A model generated the notes under the pieces. The model was given only the letters and a program-made list of their open reading frames with translations, searched no databases and was not told the origin of the DNA. DNA of 64,000 nucleotides from a virus (lineage: Duplodnaviria > Heunggongvirae > Uroviricota > Caudoviricetes). The stretch's first letter is position 1. Each line of letters begins with the position of its first letter. The stretch is taken from IMG/VR virus record IMGVR_UViG_2654587772_000002. One strand, given 5' to 3'. A program made the position numbers and the translations under genes. Below, one piece after another: positions 20,851 through 53,213 of this stretch.

Positions 20851-23800
20851 TCAGCTGATACTGATGCCTGCGGTGGCTTTCTTCATCACCACAACCAGCA
20901 AATCGCTGATACTTGCTGTGGGATACCAGCCATTTACCCACCATGCTGATACCGAAAACTCCAGTGTCATTACGCCACTGCCTGCAGGCATATCAATAAC
21001 ACCCGTGTAAATCAGAGTATTATCCAGAGCCGTTCGGTTATAAATTTCAGCCCCGTTTTTCTTCACTATCAGGCGGCATGACGAATAAGTATCGCTATTC
21101 TCCCGTTCATGTCTGGCACCGCTGAAAGCCACCGCCGGGATAACAATTTGCCGGTCAAACGGCTGATCGTCATAAACCCTGACGGTAATGGTCCCTGATG
21201 GCCACCGTTCCGGTGCACGGGAGTCACGGGGGAAAGCTTTGCCCACTGTTTTAACGAGATCGCCTTCAATCTGGTTCGCGGACAGTTTTCCCAGAACCCG
21301 GCAGTTCTCGTTAATCGTGACGTTGTTGAGCGTCCCGGAGTTCGCATTCACGTTACCGCTGATATCGGCATTTTTTGCCGTCAGCCGCCCGTCCGGTGTC
21401 AGGGAAAATGCCGGAGGATTACCGCCGCTGGTAATGGTGGGAGCCGTCAGATATTTCAGGAACACTTCATTCATAAATATCTGATCGCCCTGACCAACAA
21501 ACATCGGCTTTGTGTTGCCATTCGCAGGATTAATCATCGCAATCCTGTCCGCCGCCAGCAGCACCTGACTCTGCATACCGTCAGGGGTATTCTCAATACC
21601 GGCACCAATACCCGCGATATAAAGGCGTCCGTCCTGCATCTGCTGCAGCTTCACAGCCCACATGCTGTTCAGGTTATTATTTGTATCAACCTGAACCTTC
21701 TGTATCTGCTGAATTGCCGCACTCTGGTCTTCCAGTTTCTTATTGACGGTCTGCGTGATTTCATTGCTGACATCCGTAATGGACGTCCTGATTTCAGCCA
21801 GGTCAGGCGCAAGCTGACCGTTATCAATCTGCGTCCACAGCTCCTGAGCCAGATGGCTTTTCCCTATCTCTCCTTTGAAAAAATCCAGATAGCCGGATGC
21901 ATCATCACTCGGCTGGCCAACAGCCTCCACAAATGCCGATTTGCCAACGGTGTTCACACTGCGGATGTAAAAATAATAATCATGGCCCGGTTTGATATTG
22001 ATACTGGCGGCTATCCAGTACAGCGCCGTGCCAAGATAGCGGGCTGTGGTTTCAACCTGCCTGATATCGGTAATCCGCTTTTCCGAGAACCAGAACTCAA
22101 ACTGTACCGTCGGGTCATAAATGGCAAGATGCGGCGTGGCGGTTATCTGAAAATAGCCCGGCGTCAGCTCAATCCTCGACGGTGCTGCCGGTGCGGCAAT
22201 CCGGAACGATACCGACGCCGCATCGCCCTGCTGCCCCACGCATTTACCGCCCGGACTGTCAGCCTGTAGTTCCCCAGCGCCAGTTGCGTGAAGCGGTATG
22301 TGGTTTCCGTCGTCCGGGCCGTGCTGACCAGCCGCTCACTGCCGTCGTCCGCTGTTACGGTCAGACGGAGCAGGAAGCTCACGCCCTTCACCACCTTCGG
22401 TGTGTCCCATCGCGCCAGCACCTGATATTCCCCGCTGTCTGCAGTGACTTCTGCGGTCAGGTGCTGCACCGCTGGCGGCGTGACACCATTCACCGTGCCA
22501 CTCTGTTCGCCGTCAAAGTGCGCCCCGTTATCCACGATGGCCTCTTTTTCCGGCACATGCTGCACGGCGGTGATGGCATACGTGCCGTCGTCGTTCTCAC
22601 GGATACTCACGCAGCGGAACAGGCGCTGGCGCAGCGTCGGCAGCTTCAGCCCCCATACGCTGTATTCAGCAACACCCTCAGGAACACGGCTCACTTTTAC
22701 CTTCACGCCGTCGTTGACGGACTGAACCTCCACGCTGACCGGATTGCCACTTCCGTCAACCAGGCTTATCAGCGTGGTACCGGAGGATGGCAGCGTGATT
22801 TCACGGTCGAGCGTCAGCGTCCGGGTCTGGCTGTTCACCGCCAGCACACGACCACCGGTGCTGATACCGGCATAGTCATCATCGCAGATTTCAATAACAT
22901 CGCCCGGTACATGGCGAAGCCCTTCTGCGCCGACGCTGAAATCCACGGTCTGCGTCTCCAGCAGCTCCGTTTTAATCAGCCACAGCCCGGCGCGGTGTGC
23001 CTGCCCCCGGCTGGTACAGCCAAAGGCATCCATCTTCGTAACATTACGACCGTAACGGGCAATGGCCTGCGTATCTTCAACAAGCTCTGTCGCCGTCTCC
23101 CAGCCGTTGTCCGGGTCAATCCAGTTCACCTCAACGGCATTATGGCGGTCTTTCAGGGCGCTGAAGCTGTAGCGGAACGGCGCGCCATCATCCGGCATCA
23201 CCACATTACTGCGGTTATAGGTCCACGCCTTATCCGACGGTCGGTCCTGCACGAACGTCAGCGTCTGCCCGTTCCATACCGGCATACAGCGCATCGCCGA
23301 GCAGAAATCACTGAGAACGTCCCACGCCTTGCGCTGTGTGGTCAGGTACGCATTACAGGTGATGCGCGGCTCCGTGCCGCCAAAGCCGTCCGGCACTGAC
23401 TGGTCGCAGTACTGGCCGATGACATACAGCGCCCATTTGTCCACATCCGCCGCACCAAGACGTTTCCCCATGCCGTAGCGCGGATGGGTCAGCATATCCC
23501 ACAGACACCAGGCCATGTTGTTGCTGTATGCTGGCTTAAACGTTCCGTCCCAGATACCGCTGTATTGTCGCGTCTGCGGGTTATAGTTCGACGGCACCTG
23601 CAGAATGCGCCCGCGAAGATGATAATTACGACTCACCTGCTGGCTGCCGAACTGCTCCGAGTCCACCTGTACGCCGACCAGTGCCGTGTTCGGGTAGCAC
23701 TGTTTCACATCGATGATTTCGGTGTATGACGACCAGAGCGTTTTGTTCTGCAGCTGGTCTGTGGTGCTGTCCGGCGTCATCCTGCGCATCCGGATATTAA

Positions 23801-24329
23801 ACGGGCGCGGCGGCAGGTTATCCACCACCACCGAGGCCAGATACTGCGAGGTGGTTTTGCCTTTAATGGTGATGTCTTTTTCCGTCACCCAGCCACCGTT
23901 ACGCTGTATCTGAACCAGCAGGCGGACTTCCGACGGATTCCGGTCCCCCTTTGAGGTGGTTTCCACCAGTGCCTGCACACCGAAGGTAAAGCGCAGACGG
24001 TCGATGTTTGCAGACGTGATGGTCCGGGTAATCGGCGTGTCGTACTTCACTTCCGTACCCAGCACCGTCTCGGAGCCGGAGGATTCAAACCCCTCCGGCG
24101 GTGTCTGCTCCTGCTCACCGGCACGGAACACCACCGTGACACCGGAGATGTTGGTATTCCCCTCAGTGTCCAGCACCGGCGTACTGTTCAGCAGCACGCT
24201 TTTTAATCCATCCACCGGACCTTCAACCGGCCCTTCGCTGATGGCATCGATCACACTCAGCAACTGCGTGGACTTCAGGTTGTCCTTCGCTTCGCGCGGG
24301 GTATGCCCCTTACTGCTTCCTTTACTCAT
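20851..24329 (-). pseudogene. J: Tail tip / host specificity protein J, split by a 1-nt frameshift at about 22234-22237
   Basis: The 721-aa ORF (22164-24329) matches lambda J (MSKGSSKGHTPREAKDNLKSTQLLSVIDAISEGP...) up to ...RAVNAWG, then goes out of frame. The 462-aa ORF (20851-22239) resumes the J sequence ([30 protein letters not shown]...) in another frame. The break is at a GGGG run on the coding strand. Confidence 0.85.
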
Positions 24330-24389
24330 TCCTCACGCTCCATAAATGACAAAACCGCCCGCAGGCGGTTTCACATAAAACATTTTGCA

Positions 24390-25061
24390 TCAGCGACCAA
24401 TCACCACAACCTGACCACCGTCCCCTTCGTCTGCCGTGCTGATCTCCTGAGAAACCACGCGTGACCCCACGCGCATTTCCCCGTACAGAACAGGCAGAAC
24501 ATTGCCCTGGGCAACCATGTTATCCAGTGAGGAGAAATAGGTGTTCTGCTTACCGTTATCCGTTGTCTGTGTACGGGGAGTTCTGGCTTTCGGTGCCAGC
24601 ATCTGCGCCACACCACCGAGGACCATACTGGCACCGAGAGAAAACAGGATGCCGGTCATACCACCGGCCCCAATGGCTGCCCCCCATGCTGCAAGGGTGG
24701 CTCCGGCGGTAAAGAATGATCCGGCAATGGCGGCAGCCCCCAGGACAATCTGGAATACGCCACCTGACTTGGCCCCGGCGACTCTGGGAACAATATGAAT
24801 CACAGCGCCATCAGGCAGAGTCTCATGTAACTGCGCCGTTAACCCGGACGTGCTGACGTCCCGCCCGGCAATCCGTACCTGATACCAGCCGTCGCTCAGT
24901 TTCTGACGAAACGCCGGGAGCTGTGTGGCCAGTGCCCGGATGGCTTCAGCCCCCGTTTTCACACGAAGGTCGATGCGGCGACCAAATCGTTGTAAATCCC
25001 CGTAAAGGCAGATGCGCGCCATGCCCGGTGACGCCAGAGGGAGTGTGTGCGTCGCTGCCAT
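24390..25061 (-). CDS. I: Tail assembly protein I
   Basis: Near-identical to lambda gpI as recalled, including the Gly/Ala-rich hydrophobic middle and C-terminal ...GGQVVVIGR. Confidence 0.9.
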   Translation of the reverse strand: MAATHTLPLASPGMARICLYGDLQRFGRRIDLRVKTGAEAIRALATQLPAFRQKLSDGWYQVRIAGRDVSTSGLTAQLHETLPDGAVIHIVPRVAGAKSGGVFQIVLGAAAIAGSFFTAGATLAAWGAAIGAGGMTGILFSLGASMVLGGVAQMLAPKARTPRTQTTDNGKQNTYFSSLDNMVAQGNVLPVLYGEMRVGSRVVSQEISTADEGDGGQVVVIGR

Positions 25062-25702
25062 TTGTCGGTGTACCTCTCTCGTTTGCTCAGTTGTTCAGGA
25101 ATATGGTGCAGCAGCTCACCGTCACCACAGTAAATGGCGGCATGATTCGGCACCGATGAACCAAAACAGCACAGCAGCACATCGCCCGGCTGCGCCGCTG
25201 ACAACGGCACCTGATACAGCCCTGTGGCCTCCAGATTATCCAGATAGAGATTCTGACCGTGACGCCACCAGTCATCCCCGCGATGAAAATCCGGCATCTC
25301 AATCCCCGCCAGATGATAAGCATCCCGGAACAGCGTGTAACAGTCCGTCACCCCGTGCTCAAAGCGCCGCCCGGTGAGATGCGGCACACAGCGGAACTTA
25401 TGAATCGCCCCCCGGCAGACCAGCCACCACGGCAAATCACTCTGCACCTGCAGCCGCCGGTCAGCCTCACTCAGCCAGGGCAGACCACCGGGGTGGCTGT
25501 GGACCAGCGCCACAATCTCACCCTGCATTTCTGCCTGCAGCCAGTCCTCCGGAGCCATCCGGAAATAATCCTCCGGCTCACCGGAAATATTCACGCCGGG
25601 AAAATATCTTTCCCCCTCCGGCGTGCTTACCACGAAGCCGCACGACTCCGCTGGCGCACATCGCCGGGCGTGCGCCAGAATCGCTGATTCTGTCTGTGTC
25701 AT
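24959..25702 (-). CDS. K: Tail assembly protein K (JAB/MPN plus NlpC/P60-like)
   Basis: Matches lambda gpK (HSHPGG JAMM-like motif; Cys/His NlpC/P60-like C-terminal part). Overlaps I as in lambda. Confidence 0.9.
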   Translation of the reverse strand: MTQTESAILAHARRCAPAESCGFVVSTPEGERYFPGVNISGEPEDYFRMAPEDWLQAEMQGEIVALVHSHPGGLPWLSEADRRLQVQSDLPWWLVCRGAIHKFRCVPHLTGRRFEHGVTDCYTLFRDAYHLAGIEMPDFHRGDDWWRHGQNLYLDNLEATGLYQVPLSAAQPGDVLLCCFGSSVPNHAAIYCGDGELLHHIPEQLSKRERYTDKWQRRTHSLWRHRAWRASAFTGIYNDLVAASTFV

Positions 25703-38325: not shown

Positions 38326-39636
38326 TTAAATCCGAAGTGATGTGACTCTTCCGGTCGGTTTGACAATAGGGAATTGCTTAACGATGAAATAACCTCCTGC
38401 ATCATTCGGGTGATCATTGCCAGATTTTTTATCAGGCTCCCCCTTCTCATCCCAGACCTGTTGCTCCAGAGATTCGGCATATAACGGGCAACGCTTCACA
38501 TTAACTTTATAGCGACGCTCACCATTGGCATTGCAGAACATTGCATTCATTGAGTTAACGCGATCTTTTACTGGCGGGTTCGAGCTGTTCACCACAACGT
38601 TAAAACCAGCCTGCTTAAGCTGGGCTATATCCGTCGTACTTGCGTTACTTGATTTTCTGGAATCCCCGGAAGCATCTGGATAAATATAAATTTCCCTCAC
38701 TTTCCGGTAATCATTCCCATCATACAGCCAGAAGCGTTCTTTAATGATGCGGATCATATCCGGCGTATCGTAGGCATTGATGATTTCAGTTACCGCACAT
38801 GGAAGCCCCAAACGCAGCACATGGACGATTCCCGCCATCTTTCCAACGTTAAAATCCATCCCAATATAAATCGGCTCCCCTGGCTGCTCCACTTCTTCGC
38901 AATTATTCAGTTTCCGGTCAAACTGATGGTAAACAGTACCACTTGTCAGGTTAGTAAACTGTCCTCGAAGATAGGCTTTAATCAGCTCTGGAGGGTATGA
39001 TTCAAGAAGCGAAGGAATGTAATCTGCTGGCAGGTTCTTTTCATTATCGAAAGTAGATGCCTGCACCAGACCATACAGTGAGGCCAGCTCTGTTTTTTCA
39101 CGCACGGCTTTAACAAACTGCTCGTAGACAAATTTGAATCCTTCCGGCGTGGTTGTAACGTCAATACCGTTGCGAAGTCCATCAATCTTATAACGCATAC
39201 GTGCAATTATCTTGCGCCACGCCGTTCTGGCTTTTTCCTTCGGCAAAATGTCCAGTTCATCCACCAACGCATTACCAATTTTGAAACCGACGATCGTTTG
39301 TGGCTTCTCCATCGATCTGCAGATAGTGGTTCCCCGATACTGGCGTCCGTAATAAAAGTGAACCTCTTTATTTCCCTCATTAATTTTTACGTTCAATCCC
39401 CAGTCAGCAGCAACTTCTTCCACTGTAGGGTAAAAAATATCGCGAATTTGGGGATACGTTGGCGCAAAATATCCCTGATTTATACCTGGATGCTCCCAAA
39501 TCCCCTTGCATATGCCGCCACACCCAACCCATGTTTTGCCCGAGCCAAAACCAGCAATATAGGCTTTAAATTTATGGGGCATTGAAAGAAATCGCGCCTG
39601 AGGCACATTAAGCGTCGGAGAGATCATCTTCATCAC
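38326..39636 (-). CDS. Terminase large subunit
   Basis: Walker A-like AGFGSGKT near the N-terminus. Acidic nuclease-type residues in the C-terminal half. Position upstream of portal. Confidence 0.9.
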   Translation of the reverse strand: MMKMISPTLNVPQARFLSMPHKFKAYIAGFGSGKTWVGCGGICKGIWEHPGINQGYFAPTYPQIRDIFYPTVEEVAADWGLNVKINEGNKEVHFYYGRQYRGTTICRSMEKPQTIVGFKIGNALVDELDILPKEKARTAWRKIIARMRYKIDGLRNGIDVTTTPEGFKFVYEQFVKAVREKTELASLYGLVQASTFDNEKNLPADYIPSLLESYPPELIKAYLRGQFTNLTSGTVYHQFDRKLNNCEEVEQPGEPIYIGMDFNVGKMAGIVHVLRLGLPCAVTEIINAYDTPDMIRIIKERFWLYDGNDYRKVREIYIYPDASGDSRKSSNASTTDIAQLKQAGFNVVVNSSNPPVKDRVNSMNAMFCNANGERRYKVNVKRCPLYAESLEQQVWDEKGEPDKKSGNDHPNDAGGYFIVKQFPIVKPTGRVTSLRI

Positions 39637-40702
39637 TCCTTACTCTGGCATCAACCACATTAATATTGATCGCCACAGGCTGGGGATGTTCATTATCTTC
39701 CACCGTTTCGATCTCTTTGCGCAGCTTCTGGTTTTCCATTCTGCGCCGTTCAATTTCCAGTTCCTGTAGCCGTTTATCTGCACATAAAGCCCCGCCAGCA
39801 GAAAACAAACGCAACAATTCACGCCGGGCGGCAGCCTTATCCTCCAGCAGGATCTCAACGCCGAATTTTCCGAATTTTGCCCCTGCATATAATTGCCGCG
39901 CATCCCCATCAAGCAGAGTGGTATCAGCCATATAAAGCTGTCCCGTTCCCTCACCGCAGCACTTCGGGCAGTCCGGATTGGGTATGGCGTTATCAACAAA
40001 GCCGAGGCCTCCATATTCCGGTTCGGGTTTGCCATCTCTGGAAGCCTGCGCCGCTGCCTTGTCGAATTCTGCTATATCGCGCCACTGGTAGAGATGATTC
40101 TCGCCCCAGCAATAACGGCAGTTAACACGGCGAAATTGTGCAAGCTGATTGGGGTCGGCCAGGACAATAGCCATCAACTGACTCACTAGTAAATCCAGGT
40201 CTGCGGTATAGCGTTTCTGGTACTGATTGCGGAAGTAGCTGATAGCGCGAAAAACCCTGGCATTTCTAAGCATACGACTGGCGTTGCTGTTAGCTGTCGC
40301 ACCTTGCCCCTCATAACCGGCTAGTCGGTACGCCTCTGTCGGCTTTTTACCCTGAGCAACAAGCATCGCAAACTTAGCCTGCTGGTCAGAAATGCCGAAT
40401 TCATCGGGACAGAACGAAAATTCCTCCGCGTCGCCCTCATTCAGGCCCGCATCGAATACTGGCTTTTTTTCCTGAGATTTTTCGTTCCGCTTTTGTGCAG
40501 TCTGCGCAGATTTTTTCTGCGCACTTTTTTGCGCAGTTTTGCACATTTCTGTCTGCGCATTTTTCGGAGTTTTTTTGATGTAACGACGGGCTGTTGCGTA
40601 ATTCAGTCCCCTTGCTTCACACCATGCCACCGGAGATATACCGGAGCGGGTGTATTCAGCAATATACTCCTGCTGCAACGCCCCCCAGTCCGGTCTGCTC
40701 AT
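39608..40702 (-). CDS. Terminase small subunit (364 aa)
   Basis: N-terminal HTH-like segment (ISPVAWCEARGLNYATARRYIKK). Position upstream of, and overlapping, the large subunit. Confidence 0.65.
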   Translation of the reverse strand: MSRPDWGALQQEYIAEYTRSGISPVAWCEARGLNYATARRYIKKTPKNAQTEMCKTAQKSAQKKSAQTAQKRNEKSQEKKPVFDAGLNEGDAEEFSFCPDEFGISDQQAKFAMLVAQGKKPTEAYRLAGYEGQGATANSNASRMLRNARVFRAISYFRNQYQKRYTADLDLLVSQLMAIVLADPNQLAQFRRVNCRYCWGENHLYQWRDIAEFDKAAAQASRDGKPEPEYGGLGFVDNAIPNPDCPKCCGEGTGQLYMADTTLLDGDARQLYAGAKFGKFGVEILLEDKAAARRELLRLFSAGGALCADKRLQELEIERRRMENQKLRKEIETVEDNEHPQPVAININVVDARVRSDEDDLSDA

Positions 40703-40705
40703 CAG

Positions 40706-40957
40706 TTAGTCCTGATTTTTATCCACCCTGAGTAGTTCGCGCAGAGCAAAGGCATCCCCTTTTCTGGCAAGCTTAAACAATGCCGCTCGTAACTCGGCTT
40801 CACCTTTCGCTCTGCCCTTACGGATGGCCGCATAAAAATCTGTCATTGCTTCCCGATTTTCTTTCAGTCGGTTCAGATCAACATCCAGAACGTCAGCGAT
40901 TTGTTGTGCAGTCATCCGGCACGCTGCCAGAGACTCGACTTTCGAATACGGAATCAT
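40706..40957 (-). CDS. Small HTH-like protein (83 aa)
   Basis: ORF track. MTAQQIADVLDVDLNRL resembles an HTH. Abuts the small terminase gene. Confidence 0.45.
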   Translation of the reverse strand: MIPYSKVESLAACRMTAQQIADVLDVDLNRLKENREAMTDFYAAIRKGRAKGEAELRAALFKLARKGDAFALRELLRVDKNQD

Positions 40958-41825
40958 TTGTCACCCCCATTGATATGCAGGGTGTCTTCTTCCTGTATTT
41001 TTCGTGAAGGATTTTTACTGCAGCGTTGTTCCAGGTGACCTGATGGTGAATGCGTTTATGGCTGGCACCCATCAGTGAGATTTTTACGCACGACGGCGCA
41101 TACATGACGGAGTAAAAACTTTTAACGTAGGTTCCGGAATCCAGATACAGCTCGGTCATTCCGCCGCTGTTTTTCTGCGTCTGTTTCTGCCCTAACTGGA
41201 CAGCACCGATCGTCATAAACAATTCACCACAGCGACCGAGATTCGTGTACGTATTCACATCCTCGTTAATGCGCCCCATGAATGAGAACGGTCGATCAAC
41301 CGAACAGATAAAGCTGTTCATTGCCTTGCGTTTCACCCACGAAGCATGGCCGCCATTGTCACCAAGAAAATCCCCGCCCTGCGACATAGCGATGGAAAGA
41401 GCAGGTATTGATTCGTAGTACGCCAGCATTTCAGAAAGGATCGCATCCAGTTTCCTTATCGGAAAATAGGCCTGGTCATAGTTGCGATCCACCCGAAACT
41501 GGAACTCGTGATAATCATCATCGAGCTGAATGAAGTATTTACACCCGACCAGTTTTGCCAGGTCGAAACAGGCATTACGGGCGTAAAAAATTGAGCGGCG
41601 GTCACAGAAATTATCGGCTTCGTCAAAACGACTGGCGATATCGGCTTTGGAAAACACCAGCACCTGTTCACCAAATTCAGCCATGTACTGATTCCGTGTC
41701 TTATCTTCATCATCAACAACGATAAAAATTTTCCCGGTATAGCCAGCACGACGCAACGTCCGGTAAGTCAGAACTTTGTCCGGTCGCCCGTGAGTCAGAA
41801 TAAAGGCGCAAAAATCATCACGCAT
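40893..41825 (-). CDS. Hypothetical protein with a DxD-type motif (about 310 aa); possible nucleotide-sugar transferase fold
   Basis: Start set at Met8. FILTHGRPDK...IFIVVDDED and FIQLDDDYHEF motifs are suggestive of a GT-A-like fold. Weak assignment. Confidence 0.55.
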   Translation of the reverse strand: MRDDFCAFILTHGRPDKVLTYRTLRRAGYTGKIFIVVDDEDKTRNQYMAEFGEQVLVFSKADIASRFDEADNFCDRRSIFYARNACFDLAKLVGCKYFIQLDDDYHEFQFRVDRNYDQAYFPIRKLDAILSEMLAYYESIPALSIAMSQGGDFLGDNGGHASWVKRKAMNSFICSVDRPFSFMGRINEDVNTYTNLGRCGELFMTIGAVQLGQKQTQKNSGGMTELYLDSGTYVKSFYSVMYAPSCVKISLMGASHKRIHHQVTWNNAAVKILHEKYRKKTPCISMGVTNDSVFESRVSGSVPDDCTTNR

Positions 41826-42609
41826 ATTCCTCCTCCTCACCACCATGCATGATCTCCACCATGCGCTGCGTCATCCGGACAAATCCATTTTCAATAGCCT
41901 GCTGATAATCAATGATCACCAGCGCCGACTCCTCGAAAAAACACTGAATTTCAGAGGGGGCGTGAGCGTAATAGTCCGCAATTCTGCTGAAATTAAACAC
42001 CGTGTGACGTTCTGCCGCACACAGGAGGAATTTCTCAATATCAGGCTCAAGGGACGCCGAACGTATCCGGCTGATCAGCTCCTGAGTTTTCGTATCGTCG
42101 TACAGTTCACTGATATCCGGTTTACCGCCCGACGGCTCATAAACAGGCGTATCAATTTTCGTCGCATACGGCTCCTCCTCATTTCCTGTACCGGGCAAAA
42201 CATCCGTCAACAGTTCATCAATTTCTGTCGGGATGAAGCCTGTCAGGGAGACATCAAAATCAGCATTGATTAGGTCCGACAGCTCCATCCGCAACAGATC
42301 TTCATCCCAGCCAGCATTCATCGGCAGGCGATTATCTGCCAGGCGGTACGCCTTTTTCTGCTCATCCGTCAGGCCAGACAGAACAATGACCGGAACAGAA
42401 TCCATTTTGAGCATTTCAGCCGCCATAACACGACCGTGACCCGCAATAATTTCGCCCTTTTCGTCAATCAGCACCGGATTAGTCCAGCCGAATTGCTTAA
42501 TACTTTCTACCAGTTGTGCCACCTGCTCAGGGCTGTGCGTCCTGGCGTTGTGCGCATACGGTGACAATTCTTGTAATGGGCGATAGACTATCTTTAATTT
42601 CTCGCTCAT
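41818..42609 (-). CDS. ynaK: ParB-like nuclease domain protein (YnaK-like)
   Basis: ParB N-terminal-domain motif ...NPVLIDEKGEIIAGHGRVMAA... Sits next to the trkG-like gene, as ynaK does in Rac. Confidence 0.75.
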   Translation of the reverse strand: MSEKLKIVYRPLQELSPYAHNARTHSPEQVAQLVESIKQFGWTNPVLIDEKGEIIAGHGRVMAAEMLKMDSVPVIVLSGLTDEQKKAYRLADNRLPMNAGWDEDLLRMELSDLINADFDVSLTGFIPTEIDELLTDVLPGTGNEEEPYATKIDTPVYEPSGGKPDISELYDDTKTQELISRIRSASLEPDIEKFLLCAAERHTVFNFSRIADYYAHAPSEIQCFFEESALVIIDYQQAIENGFVRMTQRMVEIMHGGEEEEYA

Positions 42610-42746
42610 ACAGCCTTGCTTTATGAATAAAACGCACCCCAGCAGCCAGTGCTACTGGGGACGGAGGGGTTGCTGGTAAAGTTAGGTATTGGATCAATGA
42701 GTGAGTCAACATAATATTAAACTCACAATTATAAATCAGCCATATA

Positions 42747-44222
42747 TTAGGAGCGCCAAAAAAAACCTGAAAACAATATAATAACAGGATAAATTTCAAG
42801 GCGACCAAGAATCATAGCTATGCACATTAAACATTTTGCAATGTCATTAAGCACTCCGAATGACGATGCAGTAGCCCCAAAACCTAATCCCATATTATTA
42901 ATACATGCAGCCACTGTTGCAAATGATGTAAGAAAATCATATCCCATACCATTTAACACCAGTATAAAAAACACCGTGAAGAGAGTATAAAGAAAAAAGA
43001 AACTCCATACAGACCTCATTACACGATCTGTAACTATCTTCCCTCCTACATTTACACTCAACAACGCTCTGGGATGAGAAAGCTGATTTATCTCGTGTTT
43101 GCTTTGTTTGAAAAGTATAAGAAATCGAAGTGACTTAATTCCACCACAAGTTGAACCTATACATCCCCCAAAGAAACTTGACAACAGCAAAAACACTATC
43201 GTGTGCGTGGGCCAACTTGCATAATCCTGCGTAGCTAAACCATTATCAGTGAGCATGGAGCTGGCAAGAAAAAACGAATGAATAAAACTTCCATGCAAGT
43301 CATACATACCTATATGCCAGACCTGGAAAGAGGTAACAATGATCACCCCTAAGGCTATTAACAGAAAGAAACGAAGTTCAATATCTCTGATTAAAGGTTT
43401 TATCGTTTTCCTGCTAATAACAATATACCAAAGAGTGAAGTTGAAAGCCGATAGCAGGGAAAAAGAACCAGCCACCAGCTCAACCAAATAGTTATTAAAA
43501 TATCCGATACTCTCGCTATGAGTTGAGAAACCACCAAGCGAAACTGTGGAAATCCCGTGACAAATAGCATCAAACAAAGGCATTCCTGCAAGTCTATAAC
43601 AGACAATACAAGCAATACCTAATAAAGAATAAGTTATCCACAGTGTCCGTGACGTATCGGCCAGGCGGGGAGTGAGTTTGTCATCCTTAAATGGCCCCGG
43701 CATTTCTGACTGATAAAGCTTTGCACCACCAATACCCAATAATGGCAATACAGCAACCGCCAGAACAATAACTCCTAAACCACCTATAAAATTTAACTGT
43801 GACCGATAGTACAAATATGCCCGAGGTAATGAACTAACATCATCAATTACAGTTGCTCCTGTTGTTGTTATTCCAGAAACCCCTTCAAACAGAGCATCAA
43901 TGAACGTTAAATTAAGTTCTGAGTCAATCCATAAAGGGAATGCACTAATAACAGAAAACAAAATCCAAAACATTACAATTATAATAAACCCATCACGGGT
44001 ACGTAATTGAATGCCAGATTTCTTAGTTGTATACCACGCTCCGCCACCAATGCAAAAAAATATAACGAAAGTTATAAAGAAAACGAACAGGCTTTTTTCT
44101 TTATAAAACAATGCTACAACCATTGGTGGCAACATTGAAAGACTATAGAGCCAAACCAGGAACCCACACATATGAGTAACAACTCTTACATGAGATGTAT
44201 TCATATCTAAATATTCTTTCAA
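42747..44222 (-). CDS. trkG: TrkG/TrkH-family potassium uptake protein (491 aa)
   Basis: Multi-pass membrane protein with TrkH motifs (SGITTTGATV, EMPGP, GGFSTH, GSTCGGIK). AT-rich. Sits downstream of the lysis cassette as trkG does in Rac. Confidence 0.9.
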   Translation of the reverse strand: MKEYLDMNTSHVRVVTHMCGFLVWLYSLSMLPPMVVALFYKEKSLFVFFITFVIFFCIGGGAWYTTKKSGIQLRTRDGFIIIVMFWILFSVISAFPLWIDSELNLTFIDALFEGVSGITTTGATVIDDVSSLPRAYLYYRSQLNFIGGLGVIVLAVAVLPLLGIGGAKLYQSEMPGPFKDDKLTPRLADTSRTLWITYSLLGIACIVCYRLAGMPLFDAICHGISTVSLGGFSTHSESIGYFNNYLVELVAGSFSLLSAFNFTLWYIVISRKTIKPLIRDIELRFFLLIALGVIIVTSFQVWHIGMYDLHGSFIHSFFLASSMLTDNGLATQDYASWPTHTIVFLLLSSFFGGCIGSTCGGIKSLRFLILFKQSKHEINQLSHPRALLSVNVGGKIVTDRVMRSVWSFFFLYTLFTVFFILVLNGMGYDFLTSFATVAACINNMGLGFGATASSFGVLNDIAKCLMCIAMILGRLEIYPVIILFSGFFWRS

Positions 44223-45766: not shown

Positions 45767-46162
45767 CTAACCTCGCATGTCAAAGCCAGATTTCTGAAAA
45801 TCTCTGTAGACTTCCGGATTGTTGAAGGCCGGAAATTTGGCTTTATGAGCTGCGGACTTTATCGCTTCGCAATAGGCTTTATCACCGTTACTGGTAGATA
45901 TTTTTAACGCCGTACCATCCTGAGAGAATTCCATATGCAACCTGCATTTTTTCCCTTTCCAGTTATGCGGCTCATCAAGTTTGGCATTAATTGCAGCTCT
46001 GATTCCCCGCGCTTGCGCCCCCCATTCATCCTGATCATCCCAGCGTCCTGAACTGCAACTACCTGTAGCAGTAGTTTTGTGGCAATCTGAAGGGTGTAAA
46101 GGTGTGCATCCCGCAACAAAACCGACCCAAAAAGTCAACATAACGATTTTCTTTAATCCCAC
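45767..46162 (-). CDS. Lipoprotein with a TolA C-terminal-like domain (paralog 2, 131 aa)
   Basis: Signal peptide with lipobox FVAGC. Motifs WKGKKCRLHMEF and NPEVYRDFQ parallel those of the neighbouring paralog and of TolA domain III. Confidence 0.75.
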   Translation of the reverse strand: MGLKKIVMLTFWVGFVAGCTPLHPSDCHKTTATGSCSSGRWDDQDEWGAQARGIRAAINAKLDEPHNWKGKKCRLHMEFSQDGTALKISTSNGDKAYCEAIKSAAHKAKFPAFNNPEVYRDFQKSGFDMRG

Positions 46163-46312: not shown

Positions 46313-46741
46313 TCAGGGTTTAAAATCCAGCACCCCATTTTGAAATACTTTATATACTTCCGGCGAAGGGGGGGCAGGTATATCAGCATTCTTTATCGCA
46401 TTCATCGCTTCACGACATAAATCGAGGTCTCCACTTTCTCTTTTAACCTCCAGTAGAAGGCCATTCGGGGCCATATGCATTCTCAGTGTACACTCTTTTC
46501 CTGAATACTTACTCGCATCCCCGAACTGTTTTTCGATGGCGCTCTTGATTTGATGGGCATACAGACGGATATCCTCACTAACATCAGAAGTACGTTCAGA
46601 TGAACTCACATACTGTGTCTCTATTGCTTTATCGGAGTAATATGATGTACGGTCATGATAATTTGTCGATACAGCATCAGTGCACCCGATAATAATCCCA
46701 CTAATAATCAACGTAAGAATTGATGCGCTACGAAAACCCAT
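46313..46741 (-). CDS. Lipoprotein with a TolA C-terminal domain III-like domain (paralog 1, 142 aa)
   Basis: Signal peptide with lipobox IIIGC. C-terminal 85 aa (YAHQIKSAIEKQFGDASKYSGKECTLRMHMAPNGLLLEVKRESGDLDLCREAMNAIKNADIPAPPSPEVYKVFQNGVLDFKP) aligns almost motif-for-motif with the E. coli TolA C-terminus as I recall it. Confidence 0.8.
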   Translation of the reverse strand: MGFRSASILTLIISGIIIGCTDAVSTNYHDRTSYYSDKAIETQYVSSSERTSDVSEDIRLYAHQIKSAIEKQFGDASKYSGKECTLRMHMAPNGLLLEVKRESGDLDLCREAMNAIKNADIPAPPSPEVYKVFQNGVLDFKP

Positions 46742-47785: not shown

Positions 47786-48328
47786 TCAAGCCATTTTCTC
47801 AGCAAATGATTCACGCATGGGAATATATAGGGCATACTCAGCAACAGCTAACCAATTAGCAATCCGTTTTTCGCATGTGCTAAAACACCACTCTGGGTGT
47901 GCATCATTTAGCAATTCAGCCATTTTGCGCTTAGTCATCCCCCGCCCTTCATAGCGTTGCCGGAGAATGCAAATCAATCCTGGATGCTCTGCCAGCACCT
48001 CACTTATGACTCGATCAATACATAACGCCTCTGCATCAGTACAATGCGCCAGCCAGCTCTTTTGCTTGCCGTTGATCATCTCTCGCAAAAACGCTTCCAG
48101 CTCAGCTTTCTCTATTCCCGCTTTTTTCATTCTGCGCAGGGCTTCATTAATGGCTGTTTTCGTCAGTTTTTTGGATGCCAACAACTGATTGAACATATTC
48201 CCTGACCTGCCACCGCCAATATACGACCAGCGCCCCCACATACGTAGTTTTCCCTGAATCCAGACACTTTCCAGCGTGGTGAGGCGAAGGTGTTCTCCGC
48301 TTTTTCCTGTATTCGTTGGGTAAATCAT
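47786..48328 (-). CDS. Putative late-gene antiterminator (Q-like), 180 aa
   Basis: Position: last gene before the terminator-like hairpins and the lysis cassette. No motif verified. Confidence 0.45.
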   Translation of the reverse strand: MIYPTNTGKSGEHLRLTTLESVWIQGKLRMWGRWSYIGGGRSGNMFNQLLASKKLTKTAINEALRRMKKAGIEKAELEAFLREMINGKQKSWLAHCTDAEALCIDRVISEVLAEHPGLICILRQRYEGRGMTKRKMAELLNDAHPEWCFSTCEKRIANWLAVAEYALYIPMRESFAEKMA

Positions 48329-49713: not shown

Positions 49714-51105
49714 ATGACTGAGAACACGACTCCAACAGCAGACTTTAGTCCTAGTAAAAGATTTTTTGTGAGTATGCTAACTCGAGATATCGACTTAAAC
49801 GATGCCATACTTGATCTGCTTGATAACTGCGTCGATGGGGCTTTACGTACAATAAAAGACACAAAAAAAACTTCAAAACCATATGAAGGATTTTATGCGA
49901 AACTTACGATTAATAAAGATGTCTTTATTATAGAAGACAATTGCGGAGGTATCCCTAAAAGCTTCCGAGAATATGCTTTTAAAATGGGACGACCCCATCA
50001 AAAAGAAGAAGAAAATGAAGGCACCGTTGGCGTCTATGGTATTGGTATGAAAAGAGCCATTTTTAAAATGGGTAGAGATTGCTCAATACAATCGAATAAT
50101 CCCGATGGCGCATTCACTGTAGATATAACACCTGATTGGATCGATGGTGATGGTTGGAAAATACCGATGCACGAGAGTGACTATGATAACAAAAATCCAA
50201 CAGGCACAACTATAGAGATAAAAAAACTCCATTCTAATGTGGCACAAAAATTTAATGAGAGCACATATCTTACTGATCTCTTTTTACAGATAAAACACTC
50301 ATTGTCATTTATTATTCAAAAAGGATTTAAAATAGAATTAAATGGAGTTGTTGTTGAACATAATCCGATTAACATCATAACTGATCATTCTAAAATAGAA
50401 CCATACATATATAAAGCTAAAATAGACGATGTTGATATCGATTTAGTTGTTGGCTTCTATAAAAATTTAGAAGATGACAATGATGATGTTTTAGAAAAAA
50501 GGAGTTCTGATGATGCTGGATGGACTGTCATTTGCAATGACCGCGTTGTTCTATATTGTGATAAGACACATCTCACAGGTTGGGGCTTTGCTAATGTACC
50601 AAGGTTTCATACCCAATTTATAGCAATTTCTGGGGTTGTTCGCTTTACCAGTAAAAACCCAGAAAAATTACCAATAACAACAACGAAACGAGGTGTCGAT
50701 CTTAGTTCTACATTGTACAATGATGTACGAAATAAAATGATTGAAGGGATGATGCATTTTATTCGATTCACCAATCAGTGGAAAGGTGAGCATCTTGAAG
50801 AAGGGAAAAAATTACTTAAGTCAGCTCAGTCACATGAAGCTCAATCTTTATTTGAAATTACCCCACAATCAACTCCAGAAGATAAAAAAAATAACTGGTC
50901 CAACCCTAATAGAAACAAAAATGAGTGGCGATATACACCTAAGCTGCCTACCCCAGTAAAAAAAAGCTCTACTGTACGAATAATCTTCACCAGAGAGAAA
51001 GAAGATGTTAAAATTTTATCTAAATATTTCTTTGGACATGAAGATGCTAGCGCTTCTGATGTGGGGATGCAATGCTTTGATACGGTGATTGAAGAGGTGA
51101 AGTGA
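49714..51105 (+). CDS. GHKL-family (histidine kinase / MutL / MORC-like) ATPase, 463 aa
   Basis: Bergerat-fold motifs in order: N-box LDLLDNCVDGA, G1-box IIEDNCGGIP, G2-box GTVGVYGIGMKRAIF. AT-rich. No histidine-kinase dimerisation domain and no receiver domain recognised. Confidence 0.9.
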   Translation: MTENTTPTADFSPSKRFFVSMLTRDIDLNDAILDLLDNCVDGALRTIKDTKKTSKPYEGFYAKLTINKDVFIIEDNCGGIPKSFREYAFKMGRPHQKEEENEGTVGVYGIGMKRAIFKMGRDCSIQSNNPDGAFTVDITPDWIDGDGWKIPMHESDYDNKNPTGTTIEIKKLHSNVAQKFNESTYLTDLFLQIKHSLSFIIQKGFKIELNGVVVEHNPINIITDHSKIEPYIYKAKIDDVDIDLVVGFYKNLEDDNDDVLEKRSSDDAGWTVICNDRVVLYCDKTHLTGWGFANVPRFHTQFIAISGVVRFTSKNPEKLPITTTKRGVDLSSTLYNDVRNKMIEGMMHFIRFTNQWKGEHLEEGKKLLKSAQSHEAQSLFEITPQSTPEDKKNNWSNPNRNKNEWRYTPKLPTPVKKSSTVRIIFTREKEDVKILSKYFFGHEDASASDVGMQCFDTVIEEVK

Positions 51106-52094
51106 TGTCTGGACAATACATTCCCTATCACTTAAGGCATAATAAGTCTATTGATAGAGAGATTTTTCTCGAAAGCCTAAACCTCTTAAGCAAAAGACTA
51201 AATATTCAAGAATATACATATATAGGTTTTGGTGGTCCGATGCTTGAAGATTTTAGAATCATGCATAATCGTATCGCTCTTTCTGATATGATTTCTCTCG
51301 AAGAACAAGAGTCTACTCACATCAGACAAAAATATAATTTGCCTTATAATTGTATTGATTGTAAGCTAATATCAGCTCATGACTTTATTCTTGATTATAG
51401 TTTTTCTAAACCATCAATAACATGGTTAGACTATGCCTCCCCGAAAAAAATACAAACGGATCTAGATGATATACACTTACTAAGTACTAAAGTAAGCTCT
51501 TTTGATATTTTGAAGGTCACCTTCCCCATAAATCCTAGTTCTTATTACCAACGTAGAGTTGGAGAAAGTTTAGATATTTTTAAAGAAGCTTTTATTAATT
51601 CATTAAAATCATTGCTTGGGAAAAAGTATCTTGATTTTAATCTTCAGATATCAAATGCAGATCTTTCAGATCGTAAGATTAAAGCTCTTTTAATACGAAT
51701 TATTACAAACGCTTTTAGATCAGCAATAGAACGTGGTCTTTCAGGACGTAAGGATAAGATTCAGTATTACCCATTATCTTTAAATCAATATAATGATGGC
51801 AGTCATACCATGTTGACAATATCAGGTTTTTTCTCCTCAGAACAAGAATATATAGAGTTATCTAAGGCATGCGACCTTTCTAACTGGCAATTTTATTCAA
51901 CAAATTGGGAAGACGTGCAAGAAATAGCAATACCAACACTAACAATTAAAGAAAAGATAAATTTAGATAGTAAACTGCCTGATAAAGAAGCATATCAGGC
52001 AGCCGCTGAAGAGTTCTCTTTAAACGAAAATGAACGGGATAACTATTATAAATACTATAGGTTATACCCTAACTTCCAAAGAATTATGGTTTAA
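51105..52094 (+). CDS. Unknown protein (329 aa), translationally coupled to the GHKL ATPase
   Basis: Start overlaps the upstream stop (TGATG). No recognisable catalytic motif. Its 3' end overlaps the 3' end of the convergent methyltransferase by about 33 nt. Confidence 0.85.
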   Translation: MSGQYIPYHLRHNKSIDREIFLESLNLLSKRLNIQEYTYIGFGGPMLEDFRIMHNRIALSDMISLEEQESTHIRQKYNLPYNCIDCKLISAHDFILDYSFSKPSITWLDYASPKKIQTDLDDIHLLSTKVSSFDILKVTFPINPSSYYQRRVGESLDIFKEAFINSLKSLLGKKYLDFNLQISNADLSDRKIKALLIRIITNAFRSAIERGLSGRKDKIQYYPLSLNQYNDGSHTMLTISGFFSSEQEYIELSKACDLSNWQFYSTNWEDVQEIAIPTLTIKEKINLDSKLPDKEAYQAAAEEFSLNENERDNYYKYYRLYPNFQRIMV

Positions 52095-53213
52095 ATATTC
52101 GGGCTGTACTCTTTTATTTAATAAATTGTACAGCCCCTTTAATATATATTCAGCAACTATTGGTGACACGCTATTTCCTATTTGTCTGAAACTATGCCAT
52201 TTAGTTACATGAAAGCGAAACCAATCAGGGAAGCCTTGTAATCTAGCAGCTTCTCTTGGTGTAATCACTCTTGGATGATAAGGGTGGATCGGCCTGACGG
52301 CTTGAAAGCTTCCTTTATCTCTAGCGGTTCCCGCCCTTAAAGTCGGGCAAAAACCATTTGGATCTAATCTTGTAGATCTTGAAATTTTATCAGTTTCCCC
52401 AAAAGATAAGGAAGCATAACGCTCTTGGACGATTTTGCTATGTAATGTTCCGGTACATCCAGATATGATATTATTTTTTAACTTAGCGATCGATTCTGTA
52501 TCACCAACATTCCGAGGGATCTGCCCCCATAATTTTTCATAAAATCCCCCTTTTCGATCTTTTTTAATTGTTCGCCAACTCTCAGAGTCTGATTGCCAAT
52601 TGGCATCGATAATATCTGGTAATCCATACAAAGCATCTTTTACAGTAACCGGATCAATCATTTTAGGCATAAATACTTCATCTGAAATATCAAGCTTCAA
52701 TGATTTTTTTACACCGATAAAAAAATATCTAGTTCGAATAGTTGGAGCACCATAATCAGATGCTTTTACCTTGATGGGATCAAGAATATCATAATCACCG
52801 CTAACCAAATTAAATGCTTTATTTCTAATGCCAGAATATTTCTCTTGCATAATACCTGGAACATTTTCTGCCAAAAAGAATAATGGCTGTAATTCTGATA
52901 CTAAACGGTAGAAATGCATGTAAAGCTGATTCCTGCTATCATCAGGATTCCCCTTGCCTATTGAACTAAATCCTTGGCACGGAGGACCGCCAATAATACC
53001 ATCTATGGGCATATCGTTTTTAAAAAAACCCTTAATTATTTCTGCATTTAGTAAAGAAACATCTTCTTGGACGTGCAAACTTCTTGGAAAATTAATTGCG
53101 TGAGTATTAATAGCATGTTGATCAATTTCAACTGCCATTTTAACATCAAATCCAGCACGTGCAGCACCAAGACTTAGACCTCCAACGCCAGAAAACAAAT
53201 CTATTACATTCAT
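52062..53213 (-). CDS. DNA (cytosine-5)-methyltransferase, 383 aa
   Basis: Motif I DLFSGVGG, motif IV GGPPCQGFS, motif VI ENV, motif VIII Q.R.R-like. AT-rich. Confidence 0.95.
   Translation of the reverse strand: MNVIDLFSGVGGLSLGAARAGFDVKMAVEIDQHAINTHAINFPRSLHVQEDVSLLNAEIIKGFFKNDMPIDGIIGGPPCQGFSSIGKGNPDDSRNQLYMHFYRLVSELQPLFFLAENVPGIMQEKYSGIRNKAFNLVSGDYDILDPIKVKASDYGAPTIRTRYFFIGVKKSLKLDISDEVFMPKMIDPVTVKDALYGLPDIIDANWQSDSESWRTIKKDRKGGFYEKLWGQIPRNVGDTESIAKLKNNIISGCTGTLHSKIVQERYASLSFGETDKISRSTRLDPNGFCPTLRAGTARDKGSFQAVRPIHPYHPRVITPREAARLQGFPDWFRFHVTKWHSFRQIGNSVSPIVAEYILKGLYNLLNKRVQPEYLNHNSLEVRV

What the first reader, a model, noticed from the sequence alone, without database searches (positions are those of the whole stretch)
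40893..42609. ParB-like nuclease-domain protein plus a DxD-motif protein immediately upstream of the terminase genes
The ParB N-terminal-domain protein is followed, with overlapping start and stop, by a roughly 310-aa protein bearing DDED and DDDY motifs suggestive of a nucleotide-sugar transferase fold. The position just before the small terminase gene is one where phages often carry DNA-modification or packaging accessory genes. The pair could modify DNA or act in pac-site recognition.
Basis: inference. Interest (0 to 1): 0.4.

Follow-up and report, generated by a model that had tools for sequence, protein, structure and literature searches.

The report
Phage ParB-linked sugar transferase gene pair
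Just before the DNA-packaging genes of an E. coli Rac-type prophage sit two coupled genes, a ParB-like nucleotide-binding protein and a sugar-transferring enzyme of the family that glycosylates DNA bases; the pair recurs in phages of many phyla without the oxidase that normally prepares the base, so its target is unknown.

Summary

The window is an E. coli Rac-type prophage. The ParB gene is the full-length form of K-12 ynaK. The pair lies in the late operon: Q, lysis genes, trkG, ParB, TAGT, small HTH protein, terS, terL.

New here: in 60 of 60 loci with upstream DNA, from many phyla, the TAGT gene is directly preceded by a homologue of this ParB gene. The obligate partner is not the ParB nucleotide-binding domain. 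It is an uncharacterised C-terminal helical domain (residues about 140-258, no Pfam or PDB relative). This domain also occurs alone, followed by TAGT, inside the replication modules of 100-190 kb phages.

No recurrent TET/JBP oxygenase accompanies the pair, and I found no hydroxymethylase either. The complete 38-kb phage phi jlb1 has the pair and no plausible gene for one.

Best reading (about 0.5): a two-subunit, DNA-directed glycosyltransferase that acts late in infection, with an unknown acceptor. It is a new variant of a known kind.

The parts
41818..42609 (-). ParB-like protein, 263 aa; the full-length form of K-12 ynaK. Residues 1-135 form a ParB/Srx nucleotide-binding domain (NBD). Residues about 136-169 form a linker predicted with low confidence that carries the conserved motif Y148..K..P.Y157.P159. 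Residues about 170-258 form a conserved helical C-terminal domain (CTD).
41821..42192 (-). The part of the ParB gene that encodes the linker motif plus the CTD (residues 140-263). This domain accompanies TAGT in every locus examined and also exists as a stand-alone protein of about 130-190 aa.
   Evidence: A CTD profile hits the ORF directly upstream of TAGT in 60 of 60 loci, with E values from 1e-27 to 1e-50 even where the ORF is cut short. In L113, L116, L119, L151 and the second copy in L147 the upstream gene encodes the CTD only. Stand-alone forms are abundant. The family comprises 1376 clusters at 50% identity, and the domain is C-terminal in all but two of the 150 best hits. It has no Pfam or PDB relative.
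40893..41825 (-). TAGT-family GT-A glycosyltransferase, 310 aa. Conserved residues include R14, D38/D41, D102-D103-D104-Y105 and E188-D189. The start codon overlaps the ParB stop codon by 8 nt.
40706..40957 (-). Small ORF (83 aa in its longest form; 69 aa in RefSeq, 40706-40915) between TAGT and terS. It overlaps the TAGT 3' end. Probably a packaging accessory protein, not part of the transferase module.
   Evidence: phrog_309 'terminase small subunit', E 8e-23, matching profile positions 145-218 of 319. An ORF of similar size (85 aa) occupies the same position in Pantoea prophages.
39608..40702 (-). Small terminase subunit (context: the first packaging gene downstream of the pair).
   Evidence: Pfam Terminase_2 and phrog_51 E 1.7e-75; RefSeq annotation.
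42637..42660 (-). Terminator-like hairpin (10-bp stem followed by a T run) between trkG and the ParB gene. If it works as a terminator, reading into the pair would need the phage's late antitermination.
   Evidence: Consensus scan only. The Q-like antiterminator gene lies upstream at about 47786-48328.

Best explanation
The two genes encode a two-subunit glycosyltransferase that works on the phage's DNA.

The 310-aa protein is the catalytic subunit, a GT-A enzyme of the TAGT family that uses a nucleotide-sugar donor.

The 263-aa protein is its dedicated partner. Its C-terminal helical domain is the part that always travels with TAGT and most likely binds the enzyme or presents its substrate. 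Its N-terminal ParB/Srx domain most likely binds a nucleotide and loads or holds the complex on double-stranded DNA. ParB partners of phage thymine dioxygenases, and the ParB domains fused to phage DNA methyltransferases, are thought to act this way.

The pair is translationally coupled. In the window it sits in the late operon just ahead of the terminase genes, so it would act on replicated phage DNA shortly before or during packaging.

The likely benefit is protection of the injected genome from host nucleases or other defences, or marking of DNA for packaging.

Shown: family, fold, intact catalytic motifs, gene coupling, near-universal pairing, and the gene context. Inferred: DNA as the target, the roles of the two ParB-protein domains, the timing and the benefit. 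Unknown: the acceptor atom. No enzyme that makes 5-hydroxymethyl-pyrimidines is encoded alongside.
For: 1. Enzyme identity. TAGT membership is well above threshold. The fold is GT-A. The R / DDD / ED residues are invariant, and this is the motif set described for phage GT-A enzymes that glycosylate 5hmC and for the base-J glucosyltransferase (paper 10.1101/2023.12.21.572611).

2. Pairing. In 62 species-level loci from many phyla, 60 of 60 with upstream DNA have the ParB homologue directly upstream on the same strand. In most of them it overlaps the TAGT start by about 8-14 nt. The same holds in metagenomic and Pantoea loci, in the archaeal virus HHTV-2 and in Lactobacillus phage phi jlb1.

3. 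One partner per enzyme. Arrangements found include ParB-TAGT-CTD-TAGT (L147), TAGT-CTD-TAGT (L116) and ParB-TAGT-TAGT (L004, L154).

4. DNA context in temperate phages. At least 35 of 49 loci with enough downstream DNA have terS or terL of several unrelated families within 4 kb. Other close neighbours include DNA methyltransferases and PAPS-reductase/DUF3440 genes.

5. DNA context in large phages. In 100-190 kb phages the CTD-TAGT unit lies among DnaB, primase, DNA polymerase A, a sliding-clamp-like gene, RecA and gyrase genes.

6. The NBD type. It is the same type as the N-terminal domain of ParB-DNA-methyltransferase fusions (phrog_498 E 1e-50; PADLOC MTase_II PDLC03229 E 2e-38). It keeps the GxxR motif.

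7. Precedent. A phage ParB lacking a DNA-binding domain activates its cognate thymine dioxygenase specifically on dsDNA (PMC13229309).

8. Late-operon position and terminator-like hairpin.
Against: 1. No acceptor source. Every characterised DNA glycosyltransferase I know of (from the papers read here and from general knowledge) uses a 5-hydroxymethyl group as acceptor. No TET/JBP oxygenase or thymidylate-synthase-like hydroxymethylase is annotated or detected in this prophage. None is recurrent near the pair elsewhere. The complete 38-kb phi jlb1 genome has no gene of suitable size.

2. The prophage's C5-methyltransferase is not a partner. Its island occurs in 172 E. coli genomes, against 866 for the pair.

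3. A TAGT member can act on protein. GREB1 O-GlcNAcylates a protein (PMC7968844, abstract seen).

4. Weak structural support for part of the model. The CTD and the C-terminal third of TAGT were modelled with low confidence. No complex could be modelled.

5. [quoted passage not shown]

6. I found no experimental data on DNA from any phage carrying the pair.
Confidence: 0.5

Rival explanations
1. The transferase glycosylates a protein, not DNA. Candidate targets are its own partner (the invariant tyrosines of the Y..K..P.Y.P motif in the poorly modelled linker), a packaging or virion protein, or a host protein. In this reading the ParB-like protein is a substrate or scaffold.
For: GREB1, a TAGT member, O-GlcNAcylates a protein (PMC7968844). 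The closest solved folds include enzymes that glycosylate proteins or themselves: POMGNT1, SunS and glycogenin. No source of hydroxymethyl-pyrimidine exists. Y148, Y157 and P159 are invariant within a linker modelled at pLDDT below 50. The gene lies next to virion-assembly genes in temperate phages.
Against: In large phages the unit lies within replication genes, far from structural genes. The fused domain is a ParB fold of the type fused to DNA methyltransferases. Frequent neighbours include DNA methylases. The terminase and capsid families next to the pair vary widely while TAGT stays 45-60% identical, which fits a universal substrate such as DNA better than a lineage-specific protein.
Confidence: 0.2
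2. It is an ordinary hydroxymethyl-pyrimidine glycosyltransferase, and the acceptor (5hmU or 5hmC) is supplied from outside the module. The source could be an unrecognised oxygenase elsewhere in the phage or host, or oxidatively damaged DNA. The target could also be incoming hydroxymethylated DNA of other phages.
For: The active-site motif set is shared with enzymes proven to act on 5hmC and 5hmU. Only about ±9 kb around the unit was examined in the large phages, so a hydroxymethylase elsewhere in those genomes is not excluded. The 2026 survey reports thousands of divergent 5mYOX-like sequences that lack the Pfam annotation. The Pfam scan of neighbours listed only 25 of 98 families, so rare single cases could have been missed.
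Against: The complete phi jlb1 genome has no unassigned gene large enough. Every gene of the Rac-type prophage over about 200 aa is accounted for, and the one unassigned 262-aa protein sits at the replication-initiator position and has no Pfam hit. From general knowledge, E. coli is not known to make 5hmC or 5hmU enzymatically. The late-operon position argues against a role in the lysogen against incoming phages.
Confidence: 0.15
3. The ParB-like protein is a regulator or partition/packaging DNA-binding protein. It might act as a late-gene co-activator in the manner of IbrB, or as a pac-site accessory. The transferase would then be an unrelated passenger or a decaying remnant of a former TET-ParB-GT cluster.
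Against: Pairing in 60 of 60 loci, overlapping reading frames and CTD-only partners show the two genes are one unit. Catalytic residues are invariant across phyla, so the enzyme is not decaying. No ParA gene is present, and the score against the partition-ParB model TIGR00180 is below its cut-off (38.5 against 58.45). In large phages the pair is nowhere near packaging genes.
Confidence: 0.07

Closest known systems
Phage post-replicative DNA glycosylation clusters: C5-methyltransferase or thymine, then a TET/JBP 5mYOX, then a GT-A glycosyltransferase (Burke 2021, PMC8256090; Pyle 2023, 10.1101/2023.12.21.572611)
   Same: The enzyme is a GT-A, JGT-like/TAGT-type transferase with the R / DDD / ED motif set. 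ParB genes and terminase genes are frequent neighbours. The setting is phage or prophage.
   Different: Here there is no 5mYOX, and the nearby C5-methyltransferase is not linked to the pair. The transferase has an obligate partner domain (the CTD) that, as far as I could find, those papers do not describe. No product is known.
ParB-dependent phage thymine dioxygenases, 5mYOX176/ParB176 (O'Toole 2026, PMC13229309)
   Same: A small phage ParB homologue with a nucleotide-binding domain and a C-terminal domain, but no obvious DNA-binding domain, is encoded beside a DNA-modifying enzyme and is specific to its cognate enzyme. It is proposed to help the enzyme work on dsDNA.
   Different: The client enzyme here is a glycosyltransferase, not a dioxygenase. 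I could not compare sequences with ParB176 because none were available to me. Here the C-terminal domain alone can be the partner.
ParB-domain-DNA methyltransferase fusions of prophages (phrog_498; PADLOC MTase_II PDLC03229; described in PMC12704722)
   Same: The N-terminal domain is closely related (E 1e-50 and 2e-38).
   Different: The catalytic module is a SAM-dependent methyltransferase fused in one chain. Here the ParB domain is fused to the CTD and the enzyme is a separate, translationally coupled protein.
Base J glucosyltransferase (JGT) of kinetoplastids and GREB1 of animals (other TAGT members, per Pfam and from my memory of Iyer et al. 2013)
   Same: Same Pfam family and GT-A fold.
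   Different: JGT acts on 5hmU made by JBP1/2. GREB1 acts on a protein. Neither has a ParB or CTD partner as far as I know.
T-even phage hmC glucosyltransferases (the label PHROG gives phrog_842 is 'beta-glucosyl-HMC-alpha-glucosyltransferase')
   Same: Phage enzymes that put sugars on DNA.
   Different: A tblastn search of 50,697 phage records at E ≤ 1e-5 found no T-even phage, so the label looks propagated rather than earned. From general knowledge, T4 alpha- and beta-GT have GT-B folds, and T-even phages make hmC before replication.

Membership tests
TAGT (Pfam PF20691), GT-A glycosyltransferases | Significant match to the family profile above its curated threshold | tested here: met
   121 bits against a cut-off of 27.5, E 8.4e-35, residues 15-229 covering profile positions 4-205 of 205. 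All 120 listed homologues carry PF20691.
TAGT (Pfam PF20691), GT-A glycosyltransferases | GT-A (nucleotide-diphospho-sugar transferase) fold with a DxD metal/nucleotide-sugar motif | tested here: met
TAGT (Pfam PF20691), GT-A glycosyltransferases | Genomic association with a TET/JBP dioxygenase, which gives the family its name | tested here: not met
   None in the prophage. None among the Pfam families listed for 126 neighbour representatives within 4.5 kb, although only 25 of 98 families were listed. None in the loci. None plausible in the complete phi jlb1 genome.
TAGT (Pfam PF20691), GT-A glycosyltransferases | Transfer of a sugar to 5hmC or 5hmU in DNA | not testable with these tools
   Needs biochemistry or nucleoside mass spectrometry.
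ParB/Srx (ParB-CTPase) fold | ParB N-terminal domain fold with the Box II GxxR nucleotide-binding motif | tested here: met
Canonical partition ParB (ParABS) | Central HTH DNA-binding domain, a ParA partner and parS sites | tested here: not met
   TIGR00180 scores 38.5 bits against a cut-off of 58.45 and matches residues 11-94 only. No ParA gene is annotated in the window. The region after the NBD has no Pfam or PDB relative. No convincing repeated site was found near the genes.
ParB-dependent 5mYOX systems (PMC13229309) | A cognate 5mYOX dioxygenase encoded beside the ParB | tested here: not met
   The gene beside the ParB is TAGT in 60 of 60 loci, and no dioxygenase was found.
ParB-dependent 5mYOX systems (PMC13229309) | ParB with NBD and CTD but no recognisable DNA-binding domain; both domains needed for activation | tested here: inconclusive
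   The architecture is similar: NBD, linker, helical CTD. No sequence of ParB176 was available for comparison, and function cannot be tested here.
ParB-DNA methyltransferase fusions | A methyltransferase catalytic domain in the same chain | tested here: not met
   Only the N-terminal 140 residues match (phrog_498 positions 31-171 of 633; PDLC03229 positions 13-151 of 436).

The most novel reading that the evidence does not exclude
The CTD-TAGT unit is a previously unrecognised kind of DNA-modifying machine that puts a sugar on DNA without a hydroxymethyl-pyrimidine precursor. The sugar would go on a canonical base, a methylated base or another DNA group. The small CTD would be the targeting subunit that couples the enzyme to a DNA-tracking platform. 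In temperate phages that platform would be a fused ParB-type nucleotide-dependent clamp. In large lytic phages it might be the replisome: the stand-alone CTDs carry a conserved N-terminal LF motif, and in most of the large-phage loci examined they lie beside a sliding-clamp-like gene. If so, the virion DNA of common E. coli, Salmonella, Lactobacillus and haloarchaeal temperate viruses carries an undescribed glycosyl modification.
Probability: 0.2. Interest if true: 0.85.

Novelty: new variant of a known kind. Interest (0 to 1): 0.55.

Why it matters
Phage DNA glycosylation is known from T-even phages and, more recently, from metagenomic TET-dependent clusters. In every case a hydroxymethylated base is made first.

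Here a transferase of the same family, with intact catalytic residues, is carried with a dedicated partner by temperate phages of many bacterial phyla and by at least one archaeal virus. It is present at 80% coverage or more in 866 of 5,426 complete E. coli genomes, and K-12's ynaK is its remnant. Yet nothing is encoded alongside that could make the usual acceptor.

Either these phages glycosylate DNA by unknown chemistry, or a DNA-enzyme family has been turned to another target. Both can be tested directly in E. coli by inducing the prophage and analysing nucleosides by mass spectrometry.

The work also defines an unnamed domain, the CTD. It explains why a 'ParB' gene sits there, and it offers a second example, besides the thymine dioxygenases, of ParB folds serving DNA-modifying enzymes. 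A sugar on virion DNA would also matter for restriction evasion and for sequencing artefacts.

Tried and rejected
1. TET/JBP or hydroxymethylase in the prophage. I checked the RefSeq annotation of the whole window and ran Pfam on the unassigned or oddly named genes. None was found.

2. The prophage's C5-methyltransferase as a partner. Rejected. It belongs to a low-GC island with an HATPase_c_3 protein and a Methyltransf_35 protein, on mixed strands. The island is in 172 genomes, against 866 for the pair. PADLOC recognises only the methyltransferase.

4. Sliding-clamp-binding motif in stand-alone CTDs. 112 of 127 have LF within the first 16 residues, but only 24 fit Q..LF. The LF lies at a fixed distance from the CTD motif, and a similar GF is conserved among the enterobacterial fused ParB forms. 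It may simply be part of the domain. I keep it as speculation only.

5. parS- or pac-like repeats around the pair. Nothing convincing lies within the two genes. The only clear repeat is inside terS.

6. Literature. I found no paper on ynaK function or on this pair. Iyer et al. 2013, which defined TAGT, is not in the library, so what I say about it comes from memory and from its citation in PMC8256090. Supplements with 5mYOX and ParB sequences were not held, so I could not compare with ParB176 or scan with a 5mYOX profile.

7. Reports of modified DNA in HHTV-2. None found.

8. The viral-contig scan returned almost only E. coli copies. The species-level genome scan was the informative one.
Full report
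**What is in the window**

All relevant genes are on the minus strand. The DNA from 40600 to 42800 is 100% identical to E. coli strain ST2747. RefSeq annotation of that record, projected on the window, shows a Rac-type lambdoid prophage integrated next to ttcA. Its gene order is:
- intR, xisR, ralR, recT, recE
- kilR, sieB, racR, ydaS, ydaT, replication genes
- a methyltransferase island
- nin-region genes and a Q-like antiterminator (DUF1133 / Phage_antitermQ)
- two TolA-C-terminal-domain genes
- the lysis genes essD, rrrD and Rz
- trkG
- the ParB-like gene, then the 310-aa gene, then a 69-aa ORF
- terS, terL, portal, head and tail genes

RefSeq labels the ParB gene ynaK in several strains. 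In K-12 MG1655 the cryptic Rac prophage keeps only trkG, ynaK (87 aa) and ydaY. The window therefore holds the full-length form of a gene known in K-12 only as a stump.

- The second protein starts at the ATG at 41825, which is the start conserved in homologues. This ATG overlaps the ParB stop codon by 8 nt (ATGCGTGA) and is preceded by GGAGG. The arrangement suggests translational coupling.
- The second protein matches Pfam PF20691, TET-associated glycosyltransferase, at E 8.4e-35.
D38, D41, D102-D104 and Y105 are invariant in the alignment of 13 homologues, as are R14 and E188-D189.
- This R / DDD / ED set is the one reported for phage GT-A enzymes that glycosylate 5hmC and for the trypanosome base-J glucosyltransferase (10.1101/2023.12.21.572611).

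**The pair is a conserved unit**

- A scan of one genome per species returned 62 loci. They come from Enterobacterales, Bacteroidota, Firmicutes, Acidobacteriota, Planctomycetota, Saccharibacteria and others. TAGT identity to the window protein is 39-100%, and 45-60% for most loci outside the Enterobacterales.
- In all 60 loci that include upstream DNA, a homologue of the window's ParB gene lies directly upstream on the same strand. In most of them it overlaps the TAGT start by about 8-14 nt.
- The same pair appears in soil metagenomes, in Pantoea prophages and in an HK97-like phage with a different terminase.
- It also appears in the haloarchaeal virus HHTV-2 and in Lactobacillus phages such as phi jlb1 and c5.
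- In E. coli it is present at 80% coverage or more in 866 of 5,426 complete genomes.

**The real partner is a new domain, not the ParB fold**

- The window protein has three parts. Residues 1-135 are a nucleotide-binding ParB domain with conserved N21-x-R23, G57-x-x-R60 and D92-N93. Next comes a linker modelled at low confidence, carrying the invariant Y148, Y157 and P159. Last is a helical C-terminal domain, with signature stretches FL..AA.RH..F, IADYYAH and SALVIID.
- Profiles built separately for the two halves gave a clear result. The C-terminal domain (CTD) is found immediately before TAGT in 60 of 60 loci, with E values from 1e-27 to 1e-50. It is usually better conserved than the NBD.
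- In several loci the upstream gene encodes only the CTD, about 133 aa, and no NBD is detectable nearby.
- A database search with a CTD profile found many stand-alone proteins of about 130-140 aa with no Pfam domain.
- An exhaustive search of 1.8 billion representatives found 1,376 clusters. In all but two of the 150 best hits the domain reaches to within about 25 residues of the C-terminus. Nearly all of these proteins are either about 130-210 aa or about 225-310 aa long.
- The CTD has no relative in Pfam or the PDB.
- Tandem arrangements exist: ParB-TAGT-CTD-TAGT, TAGT-CTD-TAGT, ParB-TAGT-TAGT, and CTD followed by three TAGT genes and a cytidylyltransferase gene. They suggest a dedicated partner, and in some phages stepwise glycan building.

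**Context points to DNA**

- In temperate phages the pair sits just ahead of terS and terL. These terminases belong to unrelated families: Terminase_2, 3, 4, 6 and T7-like.
- Other neighbours within 4.5 kb include DNA methyltransferases (N6/N4 and C5) and PAPS-reductase/DUF3440 genes.
- In contigs and phages of 100-190 kb, the CTD-TAGT unit lies inside the replication module. Its neighbours are DnaB, primase, DNA polymerase A, a DNA-pol-III-beta-like clamp, dUTPase, RecA and gyrase.
- The window's NBD is closely related to the N-terminal domain of ParB-DNA-methyltransferase fusions (phrog_498 E 1e-50; PADLOC MTase_II E 2e-38).
- A 2026 study showed that a phage ParB without a DNA-binding domain activates its cognate thymine dioxygenase specifically on dsDNA (PMC13229309).
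- A 2025 survey found ParB folds fused to methyltransferases enriched in prophages (PMC12704722).

**What is missing**

- No TET/JBP oxygenase or hydroxymethylase is annotated or detected in the prophage.
- None appears in the loci for which precomputed Pfam labels were available.
- None is among the Pfam families listed for 126 neighbour-cluster representatives. That list showed only 25 of 98 families, so isolated cases cannot be excluded.
- The prophage's C5-methyltransferase belongs to a separate low-GC island found in only 172 genomes.
- The complete 38-kb genome of phage phi jlb1 has ParB-TAGT-terS-terL. It has no methyltransferase and no unassigned early gene larger than about 120 aa. 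The 1.4-kb gap before its ParB gene has no ORF above 73 aa.
- The authors of the phage GT survey noted that about 65% of GT contigs lack 5mYOX or ThyS, and left those unexplained.

**Interpretation**

The best reading is a two-subunit, DNA-directed glycosyltransferase, with confidence about 0.5.
- TAGT is the catalytic subunit.
- The CTD binds the enzyme or presents its substrate.
- The ParB NBD, where present, loads or retains the complex on duplex DNA.

The late-operon position and a terminator-like hairpin after trkG suggest expression with the packaging genes. The acceptor is unknown.

Rival readings:
- Protein glycosylation, including of the partner's own invariant tyrosines (0.2).
- An ordinary hmC/hmU transferase supplied by an unrecognised source (0.15).
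- A regulatory or packaging ParB with an unrelated or decaying transferase (0.07). The universal pairing and the invariant catalytic residues make this one unlikely.

**Novelty**

The TAGT family, and a loose ParB association with phage DNA-modification genes, are already described. As far as I could find, three things are not:
- the obligate pairing of this TAGT subfamily with a specific unnamed domain;
- that domain's existence with or without a ParB fold;
- the systematic absence of a hydroxylase.

I rate the finding a new variant of a known kind, of moderate to good interest, and easy to test in E. coli.

**Limits**

- Both AF2 models have low confidence in their C-terminal parts.
- No complex could be modelled.
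- I had no 5mYOX profile of my own.
- Only about ±9 kb was examined around the unit in the large phages.

Noticed in passing
window 42747-44222 (-), hairpin 42637-42660: trkG, a full-length TrkH-family potassium transporter (Pfam E 5e-145), sits as a moron inside the late operon between the lysis cassette and the ParB gene, as in K-12 Rac. It is followed by a strong terminator-like hairpin.
   Followed up: partly
window 49714-53213 (GC 0.34 over 50001-52000): A low-GC three-gene island: an HATPase_c_3 ATP-binding protein (463 aa, +), a Methyltransf_35 'putative O-methyltransferase' (329 aa, +) and a convergent C5 DNA cytosine methyltransferase (383 aa, -). It is present in 172 of 5,426 E. coli genomes. 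PADLOC recognises only the methyltransferase. It may be an uncharacterised restriction or defence module.
   Followed up: partly
window 45767-46162 and 46313-46741 (-): Two small genes encoding TolA C-terminal-domain-like proteins, each with a lipoprotein-like or signal-like N-terminus, lie between the Q antiterminator and the holin. They could interfere with Tol-dependent phages or colicins.
   Followed up: no
window 40478-40577 (inside the 5' part of terS): Four to five direct copies of a motif of about 12-21 nt, TCTGCGCA followed by a T run (plus strand), spaced 12-36 nt apart. They encode the repetitive SAQK/KKSAQ stretch of TerS. This is a candidate pac or TerS-binding region.
   Followed up: no
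L155 9001-11211; L157/L158 9001-10273; L159 9001-12690; L161 6459-7888: In 100-190 kb phages a stand-alone CTD gene followed by one to three TAGT genes lies in the replication module. In the metagenomic loci it is directly next to a DNA-pol-III-beta-like gene. In L159 it comes with a CTP_transf_like cytidylyltransferase gene.
   Followed up: partly
proteins P0241-P0506 (stand-alone CTDs), first 16 residues: 112 of 127 stand-alone CTD proteins have an N-terminal LF dipeptide 11-14 residues before the Y..K..P.Y.P motif; the control is 19 of 887 windows. Only 24 fit the clamp-binding pattern Q..LF. The function is unknown.
   Followed up: partly
phrog_842 and GenBank records listed: The label 'beta-glucosyl-HMC-alpha-glucosyltransferase' attached to this family in PHROGs, and copied into many phage annotations, is not backed by any T-even phage hit in 50,697 phage records at E ≤ 1e-5. 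It looks like a propagated name.
   Followed up: partly
window about 21929-25201 (GC 0.58-0.59): A high-GC stretch encoding a 995-aa hypothetical protein lies within the tail region. Around it the tape-measure and minor-tail genes are frameshifted or fragmentary in the RefSeq annotation, so the tail module of this prophage copy looks mosaic or degraded.
   Followed up: no
window about 1-20600 (L002): Beyond the Rac-type prophage lies a mosaic of other mobile DNA. It includes a TnpB/InsQ gene, P1-like Ref, Icd and KilA fragments, an HsdR gene with a truncated HsdS, an SSB gene and a gene annotated as a Dam-family methyltransferase of about 1,095 aa.
   Followed up: no
L008 15837-16894: A phage with the ParB-TAGT pair ahead of an HK97-type packaging and head module also carries two Glycos_transf_2 genes just after its capsid gene. 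This is a possible second, virion-directed glycosylation system.
   Followed up: no
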